Positions 7,425-47,470 of a DNA stretch of 64,000 bases are shown piece by piece; position 1 is the stretch's first letter, and each line of letters starts with the position of its first letter. The DNA comes from Schizochytrium sp. TIO01 (lineage: Eukaryota > Protista > Bigyra: Labyrinthulomycetes): contig SMSO01000007.1 in assembly GCA_004764695.1 (NCBI GenBank), positions 682,001 to 746,000 of the forward strand, in the 5' to 3' direction. The position numbers were made by a program, and so were the translations under genes. Below the pieces are notes generated by a model. It had not been told where the DNA came from and made no database searches. It saw only the letters and a list, made by a program, of their open reading frames with translations.

Positions 7425-8708
7425 ATGTCTTCTGTTGCTAAGGCGATTCGTGAGAACACCGCCTCTGAAACCTATGATCTCAAGGGCCTGAGCCAAGAAC
7501 AGGCCACCGAGGTTATCGATGCCGCCTTCAAGGACCCATTAAAGTTGTCAGAGATGGTCAAAGTGACGCTGACCGTGGGCGCTGGCAAACTCAATCGTGC
7601 CAAGTATGACGACGAGCTGCCAAAGTGGGTGTGCAATGCTCTGAAGGACCTTGGATTTGAAGATGACCGCGGCGCAAGTCTTTCCATGGAATGTGCAGGA
7701 TCATTTAAGTTCCAGCATGACACTGGTAAGAATATGAAGTATGTCCACGTGTTTCCGCGTGTGGAAAGTCCCGAGGGCGACAACGAAGACGGTGTAGGAA
7801 ACGACGGAGGTAATGGCGAAGGAATTCGCCGTGGAGGTGCACCGCTATCAGCAGAGTGGCTGTGTATTGCTTCGCAAATGCCCACGTTTGAGCAAATGGT
7901 AGCATCCAAGATGCCTGCTTGGATTGAAAAGCGTCGATGCTCTCAGATGCTTAAAGATCAGATTGAACTGTTGCATGGTGCACAAACCAAGCTTGCGTCC
8001 CGCGAGGAATTGAGCGAGCGTGAGCAGCAGCTCGTAAACGAGGCCGATGAAGATCTTTTGCAACAGAAAATCACATATTTGGTAGACCACATGAAGAACA
8101 TGGTGGAAGACGGGAAACTCACTGCAGCGGAGAAGGAGCTTGTTCTGGAGCAGGTGACCCAGAAGATTGATGGAGCAAAGTCTCAGCTTGATGCGTGTGG
8201 AGCGGACCAAGAAAAGAAGCGGACTAAGCTTGAGGCAGGTTTGAAGGCTGCGACTGAGCGCAAGCAAAAAATCTCTGCTATTAGTCCTATCACACACAGC
8301 GTGAGCAACCTTAAAGATCTACGGACGATTTGGAGAGCTCTTGTGCCTTTGCAAAAGCTTCTGGATAAGGCTGGTCCTAAGGGTGCTTGGAGTGCCAAGC
8401 TCACACCTGCGGAGGCGGAAAAGCTCGCAGAAAAAGAGCCTCTTGAGGAGAAGGAGAAAGGACTGCTTGCTGCGTCACAACACTGGTTTGAGACTGAGGA
8501 AGAGTTTGATACACGGGTTGGATCTTGTAAGGATACTTTTATGTCTTCCATCAAAGCTACAAAAAAGACTGGGGCAAAACCTCCTAAGCCTCCAGCAAAT
8601 GATGGTTGGGCGACTGTTGGTTCTGTGAAGAAGAAAAGCGCTTCTCGTGGAGGGTCAAGTAGTGGAGCTAAGAGCTCTGGAAACGCATTCGCAGCCCTTA
8701 TGGATTAA
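7425..8708 (+). CDS. Hypothetical protein, 427 aa (globular N-terminal domain, coiled coil, basic low-complexity tail)
   Basis: Long single-exon ATG ORF with coding-like composition; no family recognised with confidence. Confidence 0.8.
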   Translation: MSSVAKAIRENTASETYDLKGLSQEQATEVIDAAFKDPLKLSEMVKVTLTVGAGKLNRAKYDDELPKWVCNALKDLGFEDDRGASLSMECAGSFKFQHDTGKNMKYVHVFPRVESPEGDNEDGVGNDGGNGEGIRRGGAPLSAEWLCIASQMPTFEQMVASKMPAWIEKRRCSQMLKDQIELLHGAQTKLASREELSEREQQLVNEADEDLLQQKITYLVDHMKNMVEDGKLTAAEKELVLEQVTQKIDGAKSQLDACGADQEKKRTKLEAGLKAATERKQKISAISPITHSVSNLKDLRTIWRALVPLQKLLDKAGPKGAWSAKLTPAEAEKLAEKEPLEEKEKGLLAASQHWFETEEEFDTRVGSCKDTFMSSIKATKKTGAKPPKPPANDGWATVGSVKKKSASRGGSSSGAKSSGNAFAALMD

Positions 8709-19975: not shown

Positions 19976-20108
19976 TATTTTGCTTCTTGGCACTGTTTTT
20001 CATGAACTGTTTGTTTACCGCTCCTGAAGTACTTATTGTAACTGCCAAAATATTTTAAAACAGCAATAGGTTATAATATGGGTGGTTACATGTTATTAAC
20101 CAAAAAAA

Positions 20109-21052
20109 TGCAGAACTTGCGTTTCCTATGGTGACGTGGGGCTAAGGTTCAATCGCAGGTTAAAACCTAACTCGCAACTCCAAAAAAATTCTTAATCATA
20201 TCTTTGGATAGGTAGTGCAAAGAATGCCTCTGGGGGCATGGATATCACGATCACCTACATGTTTGCATTTTTGGGATGTCCTTGAACACCTTGAATGTTC
20301 CGAGCTTGTTGTCACATTCATTGCATGGTTTCGAAGTGCAATCATCTCGGGAATAACCAACTTACACCACTGGTAGGGGGTAAGCTTGGCTTTGTGAATG
20401 AGCACTTGGCGGAGGTCAATGAACGACACATCATTCCAGCTGTCTCGATTTGATCCATGTTGTTAACTTGTTGAGGTTTCAAATTTAGGCAATCGTAGTT
20501 TTCACAGAGCCAAAGCACAAGGTAGTCCAGTATGGCGCGCAAGCCAGGTCTTTTGAAATTGATCACTCTACTAATGTCTTTGTAGACGGCGGAGGTGTCT
20601 GGATAGGCACGCTGGAGGTCATCAATCTCTGGCATTTGACATTCTCTTTTTGCTTGGTTGACACTCTGGCGTAGATAATAGTACGGCCAGTGCTGTATTG
20701 CTCGCGGGCGCCGAAATAAACCGCAGTCATAGGGATGCTCAATGTTGTCACTTGCTGAGATGCCAAACTTCTGGTTAAAGTACTTTGCTAGCTTGAATTA
20801 AAGGTTGACTTAACTTATAGTGTTTGGAACTTGGTGGTTCCTTATTCATGCCATTTTATTACCTAATCTCCAATTCTTAACAAAGTACTTTGATAATTTG
20901 AATTGAAGGTTTGATTTATTTGTAGTGTCTAAAGCTTGTTGGTTCCTTGGCCATGCCATTTTCTTACCTAGCCTCCACTTAATAATTATAATATATCATT
21001 CATATGGAATAGTTACTACCATTTAGTGGTGATAAAAGCTCGAACATTTTCA
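20109..21052 (-). mobile_element. Degenerate, internally deleted non-autonomous IS607/Fanzor2 copy
   Basis: Remnant peptides GRTIIYARVSTKQKE and DDLQRAYPDTSAVYKDI (TnpA) are joined directly to LWLCENY, LIHKA, WCKLV and CKHVGDRDIHAPRGIL (Fanzor C-terminus). Both non-coding ends are homologous to the 38-40 kb element. Confidence 0.9.
20777..20985. repeat. ~105-bp diverged tandem duplication of the TnpA start region
   Basis: aaagtactttg...ggttcctt...catgccattt..tacct occurs at 20777-20880 and again at 20882-20985. Confidence 0.85.
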
Positions 21053-23548
21053 TAGATACAAAATAAAATATACAAGCACTAGTATGTAGGTTGCGATTTT
21101 GTTCAAGCGAGTCAAGTAAACGCTGCGTTCGAGTCTAGAAAATATTATTCCTGGATAAACAAGCGAGGTACTTCGAGCTGTAAACTGTAGGGTGCTATCT
21201 CTGTAGCTTTGGGCACATGTGTAAATTCGACGCATCTGTATCAAGAAATGAATAGAATCTTGGGTTAAAGACACTCTCACTAGCCACATGCTGCTCCTAT
21301 CAATCCTTTTGCTTGGGCAGCAACCCAAGTCGAGAGCAGATCCTAGTTCCTGAAGATGTTTTCATATGTTATTTATCGCTGCCAATTGACATGCCTAGCT
21401 AAATAGAAAAGAAAAAGAAACCGAGAGAATATCGTCTCTATTCTCTCAAGCAGAATTACTATTGCAAGTGGGTCTAGAGGTATTGTATTTGCGAATTGGC
21501 ATAGGTACTAGGTATGGAGATTTTGGCTACGCTATTTCCGAGCTTATCTTAGTCCTAAAACTATTAGATTTGGCAAGATTGTATATCTATACAAAGCCCA
21601 TGGAATACCTTTTCATGATGATTTCTCTATACGGCAAATCCAATTTTTGGTGCCATTTGTTTCTCAGGATGTACAACACAAGTATAAATTTCAAGTGAGC
21701 CACTTTGCTACAATAGACAGTCATCTTTATGGCTCAGTCTTCATTTTTCGCTTGTTGAATTACGCCTACGTGGCATGGGCGTAAATAAAAACAAGAAGTC
21801 AAAGCCGGATAGCTGCTCTTTTAGGTCACGTGGTTGCTCCTGTAATTGCTTTCGACTTATATTCTGGTTAGCTTTCGGCAGTTTAAAATTAGCTCAGTGA
21901 CCAGATTTGGCAAACATACTCTTGATGTGCAAACAATATTTAATCATGCCTTCGGGCACGTTGCAATAAACTAAATAAAATGTTACAACATGAAGATTAC
22001 TCCTAAACGAACTCTGTCACGTGCGATTAGAAGACGCCTATACAATTTGGTCTACTGCTCTTCAGGCTTCAAACAAAACGTCCAAGCTTTGTTTGCAGGC
22101 ATACCTGGGCTTCGCAGGATACGTAGGAACTGTCTGTCATTCACTATCTGCGGCATGAATTATTCTAAGAATTATCTTTAGAGGCCTCTTCCATCGCGGT
22201 ATCCTACAATAGGTAGGTGTAGGCGTTTGAGCAACTGAGGGGCAACTTAAGTCTTGAACTTAAGCAAACAAATTGCAACGAAGACGAGAGAAAGAGAGAT
22301 ACTAGTACCTACATCTAATTTGTCTAAGAGGTTGTACTTGCCCTTAGCTTTACCTCTTTAGTCCAGTTAATACCCTCTGTTGAAGGGAAGTTTTGCAGCC
22401 AAAATTATGAGGAGAAAATATATTCTCAACTCTTTCCCACTCAGGTAGTGTGTCATTTATGTTTTTCATATGGTTTATTTTCTTGAGTTGCAGAAAATAT
22501 TAATTGTCTCTATAGATAAATAAAATTGAATATTTTCTCTGCTGTTTCTATAGTTTACATTAGCTATTTACATAGTGTAGGAAAGAGCTATTGGTTGCAG
22601 TGGACCTCTGGCTCCACTGAGAAAATATTGTCAGTGGTGATGCCTCCACGATATTTGTCAGTGGGCCCAGAGGGAGGGGTCATGCTAAAAATATGACTGC
22701 AAATAATAAAGCTCCACCTACCTACCTACTGGATGCTGATTCTTTCGATTTAGGACTCTACTACAGGTAGATATGCGTCTAGCACATGCTTATCGCTGGG
22801 TAGTACTGGAGTGCTGCTGGTACTTAGTGGCATTACTGCAACTACTTTGCATACTACATACCTAACCCTCCTCTTTTCGTTAGAATGGTTGCATTGCATC
22901 TTTCGGTTATTGCACAATTCGTCCTCAGACGAAAGATCAACTAACCCAACGATTGAGTTTGGATCGTAAATTACACAGCTAAGTCTGTCCTGCTCTTAAG
23001 GTTTAGCAGGTAGCCTTCTGTCCTCAAGAGGCCAGGATCTTGGAATTCACCCGGACATTGCTCCGCGAGAGATTGAAAGCGATAGTTGCAGTAATAGAAG
23101 CGACTAATGCACTGCTAACAGTTGACTAGTTGCAGTGAAACTTTTCAGTAGTAGTGCGGCTAGTAGTCACCCGCAGGGCTGTTACTAGTGATTACGGTAG
23201 GTTGGGTCCTAACAGTAGCTGTCTGCGCCTGTCAGTCAGTTTGCAATATAGCGAAAACAGTAGAGTGGGTAGCAATAGTAATGTACACGCTCTGTTCCTG
23301 CATATATCAAAAATGTAAAGGAGGCTATGAGGGAATGTAAACGAAGGAAAACGAAGAAGGAAAGAAAACATCTAAACAGACAAATCAAATAGAAGACCAA
23401 GAGGTGGCAAAGTGAAAGCTCAAATGTTTCATTTGTCCATCATTCGTAAAGTAACTTGAAGTTGTAGTTTTTTATTCCAAGCTTAACATTTCTTTGTTTC
23501 TTTGTTTCTTTGTTTCATTCATTAGTCGGTTTTGTAATCAATCATTAA

Positions 23549-34531: not shown

Positions 34532-34689
34532 GAAGAAGATTAATACTACAGTTCTTCATACTCTTGGCGATAGTCTGTTTGTTGTTGTTGCTCTTAGAAA
34601 GTTGGTTCATGAAGAAGATTAATACTATAGTTCTTCATACTCTTGGCGGGAGTCTGTTTGTTGTTGTTGCTCTTAGAAAGTTGGTTCAT
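34532..34689. repeat. Two-copy 79-bp tandem repeat downstream of RPL35
   Basis: gaagaagattaatacta.agttcttcatactcttggcg..agtctgtttgttgttgttgctcttagaaagttggttcat at 34532 and 34611, with 3 mismatches. Confidence 0.95.
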
Positions 34690-37837: not shown

Positions 37838-38147
37838 CGGACTTGATCAACCACCAGACCCTGCAACCTCTGCAGGAAAAAAATGAGTCTGTCCTCTTTT
37901 TGGTTCCATGTTTACTTCTCCGGTAAGAGCACAGAGGTCAAATGCCAATTCGATATAGTTTGGCATTTTATTCGGGCTCAACGGTATCAGAAATTAAAAT
38001 TTATATTAGTTGGCCGTCTTAACGTCAATTTACAAGGATGATAGTGTGCGTGACCAAGTTTTGCTGCTGTAGGCCGGACCTTCAAATTTAAAAAAATAAA
38101 AAATTATAAAATTATAAAAGAAAGTGGGTACACTCTTAGATTTTAAA

Positions 38148-38235
38148 CTGCAAAACTTGCATTTCATAGAGGTAGCTAAGACCCCATCACGAGACTAACC
38201 CGCGACTCAATGAAATGATTTTTGTTTCATCATGT
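38148..38235 (-). ncRNA. Candidate omegaRNA scaffold at the transposon right end (may extend into the Fanzor 3' coding region)
   Basis: Non-coding segment conserved in both copies. Stem CAUUUCAU/AUGAAAUG (38210-38217/38160-38167) encloses hairpin UCGCGGG-uuagu-CUCGUGA. Conserved terminus GAAA(U/C)GCAAGUU(U/C)UGCA. Confidence 0.6.
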
Positions 38236-39719
38236 CCCCTTGGATAGGTAGCGTAAAAGGATGCCTCTGGCGGCATGGACATCACGGTCTGCTACATGTT
38301 TGCACTTGGGGTTAGGGCATCGGAAAACCTTGGATGCACCGAGTTTATGGTAGATGGTATTACACTCATTGCATGTTTTTGAAGTGTAGCTCTCTTGGCA
38401 AAGAACAAGCTTGCACCACGGGAACATCTCAGCCTTATGAATGAGAGTCTGGCGGAACCCAAAGTGGCGCCAACGACACATCATTCGAACAGACTTCTTG
38501 GAGACCCGTCACTCCATCTTCCTACTCATCTTGGAGGTTTCGAATTTAGGCAAGAGAATAACACGATAGTTTTCACAAAGCCAAAGCCCGAGCTTGCGGT
38601 GAATCTCATTGGTCTTGTTCTGGATCTTGAGTTGGGCGCGATAGAAAGCGCGCTTCAAGGGGATGTTGAAATTGTCTTTATCACTGGATGCAGTTTTCTT
38701 ATTATCCTCTTGAGCTTTATCAATCCTGCTCTGGATCTTGTCAACGCGGCGACAGAGATAGAATATGGTTCTAAAATCTTTCCCTGTGTTTCATTCAATG
38801 GCGCGGCCATCAGCGTCATACATCGTCTGAAACGAGCGTACACCTGGATCCAGAGCAACGACACTGTGGTACGCCTTGGGGGTGCCTGGTCCACTGGACG
38901 CTTTTTTTCTTCTTGTAAGAAGCAGAAGTAGACATGCCCAAGGCGATTCATTTGCACACGCATTGCGTTCGAAATCTGGTCGGGGAACTTTTCTTTGCGT
39001 ATTCGGAATTCTTTTAGAAAGTTGGAGGTCTTTGATTTCTTCAAATTCCAGGTACGTGCATTCACTTCGAAAATCTGTGATTCATCACGCTTGGTCCGAA
39101 ACTTATAAAAAGATTGCTCATGAACTTTCTTTTGTACAGCGAGTTCTTCGTTTTTGGCTCGTCCCGAGTCAAGAGCCTTGAAGAAATCCAGAATCCGGGA
39201 ATCACGGATAGCCTGTGGGACTTCGAGAACCCATTCAGGAGCATAATTCCTTTCTTTATATCGGACGGCCTTCTTTTCTCCATAGAGGGCACCATGTGTT
39301 TGGGGATTCCCATTTTCGTCTACCAAGACCTGCTTCGTTTTAATATCCTTTTTGAGACACGCTTTTTGATGTAACTTGATGGCTTTCTCCTCACCCTTCG
39401 CCACATCTCGATGAAACGCAACGCCAGTATTGTAGGCTCTTCTAGTGACACCAAACCATTTAAGCAATTGTGTGCGCTCATCTTTAGTAGGGTATACTCT
39501 AACCTTTCTGGCACGGACAAGGTCATATTCTTTCTTGGTGGTCTTGCGCGCCTTCGTGCGAGCTCGCTTCTTCCTCGCTGCGTCGTCGCCGTCTATTTTG
39601 CGCTGCTCGTTTTCTGTGATGCGATGCCACAAATACGGTGATGATTTCGAGGAGGTCTTTGGTGAAGGTGTCTGAGTCTTCGGCATGTGCATCTTGGCCG
39701 TGTACCACGAGTTTGACAT
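38230..39719 (-). pseudogene. Fanzor2/TnpB RNA-guided endonuclease, ~496 aa when repaired
   Basis: RARKVRVYPTKDERTQLLKWFGVTRRAYN (TnpB N-terminus); RuvC-I VVALDPGVRSF; ILLPKFETSKM; CQESYTSKTCNEC..CPNPKC zinc finger; RuvC-III DRDVHAARGIL. Lesions: frameshift in G5 run 38878-38882, TGA at 38791-38793 and at 38509-38511. Confidence 0.92.
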
Positions 39720-40210
39720 TTTTCTTTCAAAAAGGTGTTCCAAGAGGTCGACTGCGATTTGCGCAAGTCGGTCGCGGTGCATGACCACAACTTGGCCGAT
39801 TCCGCCGCGGTCACAGGCGTCCAGTAGGGAGCACAGGCCTTGACATTTGAAGCTGACCCCGCTGCCGATGTCTTTGCAGACGGCTGAAGCATCTGAGTAG
39901 GTGCGCTGGAGATCGTCAACCTGGCGTTCTAGGTCCTCCTTTTGCTTGGTCGAGGACACTCTGGCATAGATAACAGTACGTCCAGAGCTGCGTTGCTCGC
40001 GGCCGGTGGAACCGCAATCAAAGATGCGCTCGACATCGTCGCTGGCGTAGATACGCTTGCCTCCGGGGAAGCGCGCGCAGCGCACGCGTCCGCCATCGGC
40101 CCAGCCCCGAAGGGCGCTTGCTGAGACCCCAAACTTCTGGTGAAAGAACTTTGCTGGTTTGTATTGGAGGTTTGCTCCACTTGCAGCGTTTGGAGCTTGC
40201 CGGTTCCTCG
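39523..40210 (-). pseudogene. tnpA: IS607 TnpA: MerR-type HTH + serine recombinase; -1 frameshift at ~39720, ATG lost
   Basis: FGVSASALRGWADGGRVRCARFPGGKRIY (HTH), VIYARVSSTKQKEDLERQ (catalytic Ser), DIGSG, VVVMHRDRL. The native C-terminus DTFTKDLLEIITVFVASHHRKRAAQNRRRR is in another frame and ends at TGA 39523. Confidence 0.9.
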
Positions 40211-40621
40211 GAAATAAGCATAATATATGATTAATATGAAACAAACACTACGAAATATAAGTTATCGAACTTTTCACGGTTTTTGTTATACTGTCTGTAG
40301 TTCTGCAATTGCGGAGTTCTCACCCACGCGAACTAGTTGCTAGAGTATCGATCTTCAGCTACTAGTGATAGCGTCATAAGGTATAGCTATACATGACATC
40401 TTTCTGAGCTTGCTTGCAAATGTGTAGTTGCTTCAAGAAAAAGTCCCGGCAAAGTCCGTCAGGGACGGAAAAGCTTGCGATAAGATGAAGCAAAGCTGCA
40501 TCGCGTGAGGCCCAAACTTAAGGTGTGAACAGACCAGGAGGGCCAGCAAGGCTAGAGCCACTGCTTCTGTTTAACATTCTCTGATAAAACAAAGTAACGC
40601 GAAAAGATATTCTCTGCTAAG

Positions 40622-42049: not shown

Positions 42050-44252
42050 CGAAGTTTATTTTCTTTTGCAACAAGGCATGACTTTAGCACCTTTAACTTG
42101 AAGTCAATCTTTCAATCGCAACGAGGTTACCAAGGCGGTACCGTTTGTCCAGGGTCTCATGTTCCGGAAACACTTTCACACAAAATCAAATCAGAGTTTG
42201 TGCGTTCCATCATTCGTGAGCGAATTTGTTGGTAACGATACCCCTATATCCTAGACTTATGCAGAAGGGTGATGCTTGCACTTTGAGGTATTTTGGAGTA
42301 TCTTTTAGAGAATGCCAAAACCTACGCTGTAGTTTAAAAGTTGCTGCACGTGGAAGTGTACAAGGATCGATACCAGCGTCAAATCTGGTTAATTTGTGTT
42401 TCGGCAGCTCCCTAAACAAGAAAACATTCACCATAAACATGCATTTTTGCCCCCAAGCTAGAATCTTTTCTTTGCCAGGCGCTATTCGATCTTACATAAG
42501 CTCCAAGGAATACAACACGCCAATATAGCTGATTGGGGTGCAACGCCAAATTCCCTTTTGACTCCGAAATATATCCTATAAGTATATGCAACTGAGTCAT
42601 TCTCAACAGCAAGGAGGCTAGTGTTTGAGTTTGAAAATAACCTCATGGATTGACTGTCTGTAAAGGGTCAATCTGCTGCACGATGGAGAATATTTAGGAG
42701 GTATGCTAAAGAAAAAGTTTCATAACATGTTAAGAACCAATACTTTTTCTATATAGGGTCAACACGAACATCTCTGTTCCTACCAGGTTATAGAATCCAC
42801 GTTCTATCCAACGTCTTCTCTGACTACACCTAAGATAGCAGAATTATATGTTGTGAAATTTCAAAATGGAAAATTTATTCCTCTTTCTTCTTTCCTCCAA
42901 GTTTAAGGCCACTCCGTTTTCTTAATGCATTCATGCAATAGGAGAGATAAGTAAAATGATGACTTTGATTGTATTCCATTATAGAGGGGCTTATTCATGC
43001 CCCACAGTTGCTGTTTTGAACTATTTGCTGATATTCACTGCATTATCGTTCTGCATCATCTTCCCTAACTGGCCAGAAATGGTTTATTGGAGTACCAAGT
43101 TCAAAGCAAAAACCGGCCAAGGTTTACCTACGGGTAGATGCGTCCTGAACTTTGTCCCAAACTCTACAGTGCATGGTAACCATACAACAATCCATGTAGA
43201 AAATCCCTCGCGAAATAAAAAATAGGTTTGCCATTCTATTTCGATGCAACTATGGTCTGTGAACTTGTATGAGGGGCGTAGGTTCATTGGCTCGTACTCT
43301 CGCTCTCCGCTTGAAAAACGTGCCTAGGTTGTATAATACTAGTCGCTTCTACCAGATTAACTAAAAGTTGTTTATGTCATTGCGAAAACACCTATGACGC
43401 AATGAGACTATCTCATCAACTTGCACTGAGGCTACCTGAAGTGACGCAATGCCTTCTTTTCAAGGGGCCGCTGTTTGAAGTTTGCCCTCATGCCTCTGCA
43501 CAGAAAGGATCGTATCAGCCTCAGCTATGACGTGGCGACCAATAAATCAGTTAATCAGAAAACTACACTCGTAGAGATCCAAGTGATCCTGGATACCATA
43601 CACTAAGAAATGTTCGATTCGGTTCAAACTTGCGATTGAAAAATAATACTACGGGAATGCGACGCTCGCTCTGGTAGTAAAAGCCAGCTTCCAAGCCAAA
43701 GGGCTTATGACTCTGTAGCGCTTTGGTAAAGATGATAGGTCTCACTTTGGAAATATAAATAATGTAATAAAGTAACTAACCAGCGGTTTGTTGTCACAAT
43801 CGACTTAAAAACTATTTCATATAATACTTGCTCAGGCTTTCAATCTTGACTTGTCATAGTAGTCAGCTCTTGGTCTATAACACCATGTGCAAATAGCAGG
43901 GGAGCAGCGCGGGAGTAGCCTGCAATAACAAAGGGCAAAGCTAGAGCAGTTGAATTGATTTTTTCTTATGAACGTGCTCCGCGCTCAGATTTTACTAATA
44001 TATATAATATTATTTTTTTAATCTAAGAAAGAAAGCATAATAGGCAATAAGAACATAGCTAGTAGCCATAACATCTGGCACTTCCAAAGTTGGCATGCAA
44101 GTAGCTTGCCAAAGAGTGAGCAAATCCAAAACATTAATCGTGGGTTCTGAAAGTAAGTCCAAGAGCCTGCGCACTCAGGAGACCATATCGAGGCTTGGCG
44201 TGGCCTGACAACTTTGCTTGTAAGGGAAGAACTGTATCGAGGGCGACCAACG

Positions 44253-45233
44253 ATGGAGGCAACGGCAGCAACAGACCTGTCTAAGTCGGTTGGAGCAAGT
44301 GAAAGCTCTATTGAGACTAGTACAGTCAGTAGCTCTCACGATGTAGCGAAGATTGAAGGGGCTAACACAGGCGCACATCCGCCTACAGCGCCGGCTTTTG
44401 CTCCGAACCCAACATCAAAACCTAACAGTCACATCTCGAATAACGTGATCAATCACGAAATACTCACTGCCGAAGTCCAGTCGTCGGTGAAAGCCCTCAA
44501 AGAGGCATGCGCTAAGCACGATCTGAAACTTCGAAATGATTTTGAGGCTGTGCGTCTAGTGGTCGCGTGCGAAGGCAACCAGGATAAGATGCTTAAGCGG
44601 ATTAAACATATGCGGGAATTTGAGGTTGAAAACAAATTCGACGAGATTTCGCCAGAAGAGGCGTGGGATTACTACCACAAGAACCTCCCCAAGGCAGCCC
44701 TAACTTTCATCGGACATGACCGTCAAGAACGCCCTGTCCTGTATATCAATGTAGCTGGGTTTTACCCCAGTAAGATCTATAAGGACCCGAAGCTCTTGCG
44801 CTGCCTTTTTCGTTTGTGTGTTTTCGAGCTCCAAGCTTCTGCGACAAATCTCGATGAAGCTAATAAGGGTTTCATCATGCTTATGAATTGTAAAGGTATG
44901 GCCATGAAAAACTTCTCCCTGAAGCTTGAGCATGAGCTCTCATGGTTATATCAAAATGGCTATCCGATCCGCCTCTGTCAGATTATCTTCTTTAACGCAA
45001 ATGCCATCACTCGTGTGGTGATCAAAGCGTGTAAGGTTTTTCTTACACGCAAAATGCAGGAAAGAATCGTTATTGTGAATGGCAATAAGGAGATTCAGGA
45101 GCTTGTCTCAACCGAAAACCTACCCAAAGACGATGACCTTGGATCTCTGTCAACTGCGCAATCTAGGGAGATTGCACTCAAGCGTGTAGGAGAATTGTAT
45201 GCATTCGAATCCCAGTTTTCTCTCGGACTATAG
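44253..45233 (+). CDS. CRAL-TRIO (Sec14-like) lipid-binding protein, paralog 1
   Basis: GHDRQERPVLY, GFIMLMNCKGMAMKNF, QNGYPIRLCQIIFFNA, KVFLTRKMQERI. First ATG is 44253. Confidence 0.88.
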   Translation: MEATAATDLSKSVGASESSIETSTVSSSHDVAKIEGANTGAHPPTAPAFAPNPTSKPNSHISNNVINHEILTAEVQSSVKALKEACAKHDLKLRNDFEAVRLVVACEGNQDKMLKRIKHMREFEVENKFDEISPEEAWDYYHKNLPKAALTFIGHDRQERPVLYINVAGFYPSKIYKDPKLLRCLFRLCVFELQASATNLDEANKGFIMLMNCKGMAMKNFSLKLEHELSWLYQNGYPIRLCQIIFFNANAITRVVIKACKVFLTRKMQERIVIVNGNKEIQELVSTENLPKDDDLGSLSTAQSREIALKRVGELYAFESQFSLGL

Positions 45234-45783: not shown

Positions 45784-45933
45784 GCGCATGATTCACCTGC
45801 GCATGGCTCTACTGCGCATGGCTCTACTGCGCATGGCTCTACTGCGCATGGCTCTACTGCGCATGGCTCTACTGCGCATGGCTCTACTGAGCGTGGTTCT
45901 ACCGCGGATGGTCCTGGGCAGGTGGTTCCTAGT
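45784..45933 (+). repeat. 15-bp minisatellite (GCGCATGGCTCTACT)x6 with degenerate flanking units
   Basis: Perfect units span 45799-45888; translates to (AHGST)n in ORF 45775..46083. Confidence 0.9.
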
Positions 45934-46528: not shown

Positions 46529-47470
46529 ATGCACTCGTCAAGCTCAAGCCAAGACAGTAAAGCTACGACAGATATCAAGGACTTAGACATTACGACTGAA
46601 AGTAATGGCGATGGAAAGGCTAGCGGGCATTTGACCACTCAGGCAAATATTCCTGAAAACATAGTCAAGTCTGCCTTGGAGCTGAAGGAGATCTGCAAAA
46701 AAGAGAATCTTGCTCTTCGCAACGATTTCGAAGCTTTACGCCTGGCCACTGCTTGTCGTGGCGACTTTGGCAAGATGAAGAAACGCATTATAAATTTGCG
46801 AGAATTCGAAGCGCACCACAAGCTGGAAGAGCTTTCTCCTGAGGAGACATGGGACTACTACCACAACGAGTTACCAGGAGGATTCATGTCTTTCATTGGA
46901 AAAGACCGTTCAGGTAGAGCAGTTATGTACGCTGACACCGCAAACTTCTACCCTTCAAAAATATTCAAGGATGAAAAGCTGAAGCGTGTTATGTTTCGTC
47001 AGTTCTCACTGCTTATGCAGGCCTCAGCAACACACCCTGGAGAGGTAGACCAAGGGTTCATCATTGTTATGAATTGCAAAGGCATGGCCATGAAAAATGT
47101 TTCAATTACGCTTCAGCAAGAAGTTGCCTGGCTTCTACAAAGCGGCTATCCCATCCGTTTGTGTCAGGTAGTATTCTTTAACGCCAATAGTATCACCCGG
47201 TGGACACTCAAGGCTTGCAAGGTTTTCTTGACAAGGAAGATGCAAGATCGCATTGCAATCATTAACGGAACTGAAGCAATCCAAGAACTTATTTCGGCAG
47301 AAAGTCTCCCTGAAAGTCAGCAACTCGGGACACAGCCGACTGCTCAAGTACGCACGACCCACCTGGAGCGCGTTAAAGCTTTTTACGATTTTGAACCCAC
47401 ATTTACCTTGCACATTTACCTTGCCCAAGTCATCTGCGGCCTAGTACTCAATTTACTACAATTATTATGA
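46529..47470 (+). CDS. CRAL-TRIO (Sec14-like) lipid-binding protein, paralog 2
   Basis: Colinear with paralog 1 (LRNDFEA, WDYYH, FYPSKI, MNCKGMAMKN, GYPIRLCQ, KACKVFLTRKMQ). Confidence 0.88.
   Translation: MHSSSSSQDSKATTDIKDLDITTESNGDGKASGHLTTQANIPENIVKSALELKEICKKENLALRNDFEALRLATACRGDFGKMKKRIINLREFEAHHKLEELSPEETWDYYHNELPGGFMSFIGKDRSGRAVMYADTANFYPSKIFKDEKLKRVMFRQFSLLMQASATHPGEVDQGFIIVMNCKGMAMKNVSITLQQEVAWLLQSGYPIRLCQVVFFNANSITRWTLKACKVFLTRKMQDRIAIINGTEAIQELISAESLPESQQLGTQPTAQVRTTHLERVKAFYDFEPTFTLHIYLAQVICGLVLNLLQLL

What the first reader, a model, noticed from the sequence alone, without database searches (positions are those of the whole stretch)
38128..38235. Candidate omegaRNA scaffold and guide boundary defined by comparing two copies
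Seen: downstream of the nuclease stop, both copies keep ~80-90 nt of non-coding sequence. It ends in GAAAUGCAAGUUUUGCA (38149) and GAAACGCAAGUUCUGCA (20109), after which similarity stops. Both copies can form a central hairpin (UCGCGGG/CUCGUGA; roughly GUUGCGAGUUA/UAACCUGCGAU) followed by a shared CUUAGC. Inference: this is the omegaRNA scaffold, and the flank becomes the guide (about UUUAAAAUCUAAGAGUGUAC for this copy).
Basis: partly seen in the sequence, partly recalled or inferred. Interest (0 to 1): 0.8.

Follow-up and report, generated by a model that had tools for sequence, protein, structure and literature searches.

The report
Fanzor2 guide-RNA scaffold, boundary corrected
This stretch is the right end of a broken IS607-type jumping gene in a likely thraustochytrid protist and is predicted to be the guide-RNA scaffold of its Fanzor2 nuclease, but the scaffold likely ends 15 bases further on than first proposed (closing a predicted pseudoknot), so most of the proposed guide would be scaffold; it is a known design in a new host.

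Summary
The shared tail is real: copies A (38 kb) and B (20 kb) align from the nuclease stop to UGCA (0 of 2000 nulls score as high). It is the right end of a decayed IS607 serine recombinase + Fanzor2 element. The guide call is wrong by 15 nt. Related elements end in UUUAA-N-[pseudoknot strand]-NG. A profile from 19 such ends scores 15.1 at 38133 and -10.4 at 38148. The shared CUUAG is the loop strand of a pseudoknot: UCUUAG (38181-38176) pairs with CUAAGA (38139-38134). Across relatives this helix covaries strongly (92 double changes against 26 shuffled; 34 of 40 fully paired). Similarity to B stops at 38149 because B's end has decayed. The predicted guide starts at 38132 (UGUACCCAC...), and the likely TAM is CCG. 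The pseudoknot-to-end span is short (48 nt; 65-139 in relatives). No RNA evidence was obtained, and the nuclease of this copy is dead. The design is published (ISXfa1, ApmFz2), and this scan has noted it on other DNA. New member of a known kind.

The parts
38230..40045 (-). Fanzor2 (TnpB-family) pseudogene of copy A; two frameshifts and two in-frame TGA stops; DPG, QESY (Ealt), zinc finger and DRD motifs present
   Evidence: tblastn of intact relative P0001 gives three pieces in three frames at 86-90% identity; translations; PF07282 and PF12323
39720..40170 (-). IS607-type serine recombinase (TnpA), overlapping the Fanzor2 N-terminus; runs into the Fanzor2 frame at a frameshift
   Evidence: PF00239 E=4.7e-12; N-terminal segment and YARVS motif shared with relatives
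38186..38206 (-).
   Evidence: MFE fold; in 38 relatives the 51 nt before the pseudoknot-loop stem fold at z<-1 in 36 and z<-2 in 22; A z -1.4
38172..38185 (-). Short stem whose loop UCUUAG (38181-38176) is the 5' pseudoknot strand
   Evidence: 3-bp stem 89.9% paired over 43 rows, with G-C/C-G/U-A/A-U swaps; one pair is broken in A
38148..38165 (-).
   Evidence: binding role is inferred from IS607 repeat units (PMC13565253, figure legend passage)
38133..38147 (-). Element terminus UUUAAAAU-CUAAGA-G; CUAAGA (38139-38134) is the 3' pseudoknot strand; last scaffold base G38133
   Evidence: end profile scores 15.1 here, next best 2.1, -10.4 at 38148; alignments; covariation
38118..38132 (-). Predicted guide from the flank, starting UGUACCCAC; about 15 nt by analogy with published Fanzors
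   Evidence: not shared with B above chance (575 of 2000 nulls); length from PMC13565253 passage; no RNA data
40277..40314 (-). Candidate left junctions: CCG at 40314-40312 or 40279-40277 (predicted TAM CCG)
   Evidence: A-B similarity starts at 40276; relatives with mapped left ends start at CCG; CCG lies 340-405 nt before YARVS in 20 of 30 relatives, 32-48% in four other bins
20093..21055 (-). Copy B: internally deleted, decayed member of the same family; keeps hairpin 1 and CCUUAG (20147-20142), but the terminus reads UUAAUA (20099-20094) where A has CUAAGA
   Evidence: best end-profile score only 2.3; many other family contigs lie on it

Best explanation
The stretch is the right end of a decayed IS607-type element (serine recombinase plus Fanzor2) and is predicted to encode the Fanzor2 omegaRNA scaffold, which likely ends at G38133 rather than 38148. 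Shown: the gene anatomy, the conserved terminus and the complementary strands UCUUAG/CUAAGA, which covary in relatives. Inferred: a minus-strand transcript runs through the end into the flank and folds as hairpin 1, then a short stem whose loop pairs with the last scaffold bases (pseudoknot). Fanzor2 would bind it and use about 15 flank bases from 38132 as guide to cut the empty donor site next to a likely CCG TAM after TnpA excises the element, so that repair restores the insertion. In copy A both proteins are broken, so the RNA could work only with Fanzor2 from another copy; more likely it is a relic here.
For: Ends of relatives, mapped where pairs of copies diverge, read UU(U)AA-N-xxxxx-NG. 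A profile of 19 such ends picks 38133 in A; only 2 of 127,958 window positions score as high. Pseudoknot plus loop stem on 43 rows: 88.4% paired against 63.2 shuffled, 92 double changes against 26.2, 0 of 500 shuffles, slid controls 30-57%. 34 of 40 rows have 5 of 5 Watson-Crick pairs; 14 of 20 distinct word pairs against a permutation mean of 1.1. Ten loci outside the model: 90% paired, 16 double changes against 4.7. At 20148 most family depth in four runs shows the base that restores the loop-closing G-C pair lost in B. The same layout is published for ISXfa1 (PMC10711439), ApmFz2 (PMC11832414), MmeFz2 (PMC12923547) and CboIStron (PMC10690162).
Against: No RNA data. The relatives-only covariance model ranks A first in the window but without significance (9.5 bits, E=3.2, next hits 9.4 and 9.3). 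Single-sequence folds are no better than shuffles. Two of the five measures did not beat shuffles (355 and 93 of 500). The relatives are distant (about 30-55% protein identity) and related to each other. No second intact end from this genome and no empty site was seen. A's span from pseudoknot loop to end is 48 nt against 75-139 in 38 relatives and 65 in L023, so a stem may have been lost by deletion.
Confidence: 0.85

Rival explanations
1. One reading: the scaffold ends at 38149/38148 and the guide is UUUAAAAUCUAAGAGUGUAC.
For: A-to-B similarity stops there; summed family depth on B falls to single-locus level below the bin 20092-20135, which cannot separate 20109 from 20093.
Against: End profile scores -10.4 at 38148 against 15.1 at 38133. 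The next 15 nt match the family terminus and complete a 6-bp covarying helix. B holds a 4-of-6 relic of the strand in the same register.
Confidence: 0.04
2. The conserved tail is only a DNA signal (TnpA-binding repeats and crossover site); the complementarity has no RNA role.
For: IS607 ends carry repeat units (PMC13565253 passage); folds of A and B are not unusually stable; no RNA seen.
Against: Compensatory changes between two blocks 48-139 nt apart, with G-U tolerated, and a variable-sequence hairpin kept in a fixed place are the marks of RNA structure. The pseudoknot is required for activity in ISXfa1 and CboTnpB (PMC10711439, PMC10690162).
Confidence: 0.04
3. In this genome the unit extends past 38133 (shared flank, or capture by a larger transposon), so the guide would be fixed or start later.
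For: A and B both show TGTA(C/A)CCAC just after the terminus; Fanzor2 captured by other transposons is published (PMC10711439).
Against: Similarity beyond 38133 is not above null (575, 274 and 669 of 2000). Three of four runs show only single-locus depth on B below 20091. TnpA is still in the element.
Confidence: 0.07

Closest known systems
ISXfa1 IS607 TnpB reRNA and Fanzor2 reRNAs (PMC10711439; abstract and Results parts 1-2 of 3 read)
   Same: IS607 TnpA plus DPG/Ealt nuclease; stem-loops with a loop-to-3'-end pseudoknot; right-flanking base counted into the scaffold
   Different: ISXfa1 crosses over at GG with a GGG TAM and about 150 nt RNA; here the end is AG (CG in most relatives), the predicted TAM is CCG and the structured part is about 75-100 nt
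ApmFz2, mimivirus L79, PDB 9B0L (PMC11832414 and PMC10530073; passages read)
   Same: Best solved-structure match of the intact relative P0001 (E=4e-18); pseudoknot with scaffold bases -4 to 0; IS607 context
   Different: Viral, 205-nt scaffold with long stems, TAM GGG; this one is nuclear, decayed and much shorter
NlovFz2 and MmeFz2 (PMC10432273, PMC12923547; passages read)
   Same: Eukaryotic Fanzor2; NlovFz2 TAM is CCG; the MmeFz2 scaffold has two stem-loops and a pseudoknot, and its distal second stem can be cut back
   Different: Other hosts; no sequence comparison to their RNAs was made here

Membership tests
Fanzor2 / pro-Fanzor nuclease | RuvC-I DPG motif | tested here: met
   ALDPG in copy A and P0001
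Fanzor2 / pro-Fanzor nuclease | Catalytic Glu about six residues before the zinc finger (Ealt) | tested here: met
   QESYTSKTCNEC in copy A; 85 of 110 homologs have DPG and Ealt
Fanzor2 / pro-Fanzor nuclease | Intact, active nuclease at this locus | tested here: not met
   two frameshifts and two stops; intact relatives P0001/P0004 at 89% exist as transcript-derived proteins
IS607 / IS607EU | Serine recombinase TnpA upstream of the nuclease | tested here: met
   PF00239
IS607 / IS607EU | Matching crossover dinucleotide at both ends (usually GG) | tested here: inconclusive
   right end AG; left end not fixed, candidates CCG; relatives show CG at both ends; non-matching ends occur in TnpAS assays (PMC10690162 passage)
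IS607 / IS607EU | Many dispersed copies | tested here: met
   two in the window; 284-430 contigs per run lie on copy B
TnpB/Fanzor2 omegaRNA (reRNA) | Lies between the nuclease 3' end and the element right end | tested here: met
TnpB/Fanzor2 omegaRNA (reRNA) | Pseudoknot between a loop and the last scaffold bases | tested here: met
   6 of 6 Watson-Crick pairs in A; covariation in relatives
TnpB/Fanzor2 omegaRNA (reRNA) | Variable guide from the flank | tested here: inconclusive
   met in relatives; for A only decayed B is available
TnpB/Fanzor2 omegaRNA (reRNA) | Expressed, bound by the nuclease, directs cleavage | not testable with these tools
   needs small-RNA sequencing, pull-down and a TAM assay

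The most novel reading that the evidence does not exclude
This thraustochytrid family carries a naturally minimal Fanzor2 scaffold (about 75-100 nt, without the stem that follows the pseudoknot loop in its relatives) that still works with intact, transcribed 600-aa Fanzor2 copies, recognises a CCG TAM, and recombines through non-matching AG/CG cores because the pseudoknot holds an A at position -2.
Probability: 0.3. Interest if true: 0.55.

Novelty: new member of a known kind. Interest (0 to 1): 0.3.

Why it matters
The corrected boundary decides whether a reconstituted RNP would work: cutting the scaffold at 38148 would remove the pseudoknot strand that is essential in characterised IS607 TnpBs. 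The family also extends IS607-Fanzor2 elements to a likely thraustochytrid host. No thraustochytrid entry turned up in two full-text searches or in the held supplements of three Fanzor surveys (one scanned file could not be searched). A short natural scaffold and intact relatives make it a modest genome-editing lead. The mechanism itself is published.

Tried and rejected
Rfam at gathering thresholds: 0 matches in the window. No whole genome is held, so genomic right ends could not be collected. The read-through C-terminal piece found no relative in viral contigs, and a pattern built on the A/B tail found 0 viral contigs. No RNA holder was listed among 24 runs, which is no evidence on expression. 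No reads or contigs were laid on copy A, so its end and any empty site are untested in other strains. MFE folds miss the pseudoknot and are not above shuffles. The tool alignment A5 misplaced A's 5' block; the E-INS-i alignment placed it with the family block, so one search counts A as mostly unpaired. The covariance model alone does not detect A significantly. The outer helix CAUUUCAU/AUGAAAUG appears in constrained folds of A but was not tested for covariation, so I do not claim it. Neither 20-nt candidate guide has a match with fewer than 4 mismatches elsewhere in the window. The 529-aa ORF 40244-38655 is a frameshift fusion, not a real fused gene. The U/A link at the sixth pseudoknot pair (4 of 6 against 1 of 34, p=0.0008, not corrected for kinship) is not absolute: held-out L042 and L065 end in AG without the U.

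Full report
Context. The window is eukaryotic; the nearest named homolog of a host gene is from Hondaea fermentalgiana at 70% identity, so the host is likely a thraustochytrid. The finding lies just 3' of a minus-strand element that encodes a serine recombinase (PF00239) and a TnpB-family nuclease (PF12323, PF07282) with the Fanzor fingerprints DPG and QESY-TSKTC (definitions from PMC10711439, Results parts 1-2 read). An intact 601-aa relative, P0001, from a transcript collection aligns to copy A in three pieces in three frames at 86-90% identity, so copy A has two frameshifts besides two in-frame stops. Its best solved-structure match is mimivirus ApmFz2, 9B0L. Copy B (about 21055-20093) is a deleted and more decayed member of the family.

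Observation. The A-B alignment from the stop to UGCA beats 2000 of 2000 GC-matched stretches, while the next 16 nt do not. Neither copy folds better than shuffles. So the two-copy description is accurate, but two copies cannot place the end if one is decayed.

Where the element ends. An alignment of 26 homologs fetched 80 of 349 confirmed metagenome loci, 10 viral loci and 80 of 127 prokaryote-genome loci. Pairs of related copies diverge right after UU(U)AA-N-xxxxx-NG, for example L025/L026/L027/L032, L051/L060, L071/L074, L009/L018. I trained a 22-nt profile on 19 ends taken from those break points (in a few pairs one flank was short), without A or B. In A it scores 15.1 at 38133, 2.1 at the next best place and -10.4 at 38148; 2 of 127,958 window positions reach 15.1. 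B's best score is 2.3. In B, UUAAUA lies the same nine bases after UGCA as CUAAGA does in A, so B's terminus looks decayed in place.

Pseudoknot. CUUAG and CUAAG are reverse complements. I aligned A with 42 relatives: loci among L001-L093 with an end score of 7 or more, after dropping 7 near-duplicates and 4 doubtful ends. On the tool alignment, a 3-bp loop stem plus a 6-bp pseudoknot gave 88.4% paired cells (shuffled 63.2), 92 cells with change on both sides (26.2) and covariation 0.625 (0.170), each with 0 of 500 shuffles as high; the two measures that count pairs or pair types did not beat the shuffles (355 and 93 of 500); slid controls gave 30-57%. Anchored by the E-INS-i column, with 3 rows dropped for a gap, 34 of 40 rows have five of five Watson-Crick pairs, and 14 of 20 distinct word pairs are fully paired against a mean of 1.1 and a maximum of 10 in 100,000 permutations. 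In A all six pairs UCUUAG/CUAAGA are Watson-Crick. A covariance model from 38 relatives hit 13 places in 25 held-out loci at E up to 1; the 10 best show 90% pairing and 16 double changes against 4.7 (this alignment is fitted to the model). On the window it ranks A first and places the helix and end as above, but at E=3.2, so it supports the register and not the detection. The rows are related, so these controls are not probabilities.

Other copies in this kind of genome. Contigs of four runs laid on copy B number 284-430 per run; summed depth in X1 is 6650 in bin 20092-20135 against 404 below 20091. Depth is not copy number, and X1 may be the source sample. At 20148 about 73-85% of depth in each run has the base that restores the G-C pair closing the pseudoknot loop, which B has lost. 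One X2 contig aligns over 20118-20275 with two gaps, which fits a short layout in at least one more copy. The bins do not resolve the terminus.

Anatomy and size. The distance from loop to end is 48 nt in A and about 54 in B, against 75-139 (median 97.5) in those 38 and 65 in L023. The stem that follows the loop in most relatives is absent. Whether the active family members share this or A and B lost it is open. The 5' end of the RNA is unknown; the structured part spans 74 nt from hairpin 1 or 97 nt from the stop.

Left end and TAM. Relatives with mapped left ends start at CCG (L027/L032, L044/L045, L023/L028), and CCG lies 340-405 nt before YARVS in 20 of 30 relatives against 12 of 33, 12 of 32, 11 of 23 and 7 of 22 in other bins. 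A has CCG at 40314 and at 40279, the second next to the start of A-B similarity at 40276. I infer a CCG TAM, as measured for NlovFz2 (PMC10432273, passages). A's right end is AG, not CG; A at -2 goes with U in the loop in 4 of 6 rows against 1 of 34, with two held-out exceptions. Non-matching end dinucleotides arise in TnpAS assays (PMC10690162, passages). This part is tentative.

Mechanism. Shown: anatomy, terminus, complementarity and covariation. From established work: IS607 TnpA excises a circle, TnpB or Fanzor2 with the right-end RNA cuts the empty site, and repair restores the element (PMC13565253, passages); the right-flanking base belongs to the scaffold and the pseudoknot is needed (PMC10711439; PMC11832414 passages). 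Inferred for this locus: scaffold to G38133, guide from U38132, TAM CCG, activity only in trans if at all.

Known or new. The design is published. Two full-text searches and the held supplements of three surveys (one scanned file not searched) gave no thraustochytrid Fanzor2; one search listed one paper on another subject (listing only). Supplements of the other papers were not read. Earlier notes of this scan report the same element family elsewhere in this genome and similar scaffolds in three other genomes; they are unchecked and are not counted as support. Verdict: a real feature, correct kind, boundary corrected by 15 nt; new member of a known kind; interest 0.3.

Noticed in passing
window 3743, minus strand: Scores 15.6 on the right-end profile, but no Fanzor similarity lies nearby; either chance or a lone end of another element.
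   Followed up: partly
window 20777-20875 and 20882-20980: A 99-bp tandem duplication (78% identical) in the 5' part of copy B; 16-20 contigs per run leave B's sequence at 20980.
   Followed up: partly
L094-L170 against L001-L093: Many prokaryote-genome relatives end in GTATCGG (GG core), while the clade closer to this element ends in AGCG, GGCG, AGAG or AGTG.
   Followed up: partly
L014, L015, L017 right ends: They keep the terminal motif but lack the usual loop block in the alignment; a shifted pseudoknot is possible.
   Followed up: no
window 44214-45233 and 46529-47470: Two tandem paralogous ORFs, 72-74% identical in DNA over parts; they look like CRAL-TRIO lipid-binding proteins (label recalled, not tested).
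   Followed up: no
window 34532-34689 and 45784-45911: A 79-bp tandem duplication at 96% identity, and a 15-bp-unit repeat that reads HGSTA.
   Followed up: no
window 7425-8708: 427-aa ORF with no Pfam match but 39 homologs at E up to 1e-20, with named ones in a thraustochytrid and diatoms.
   Followed up: partly
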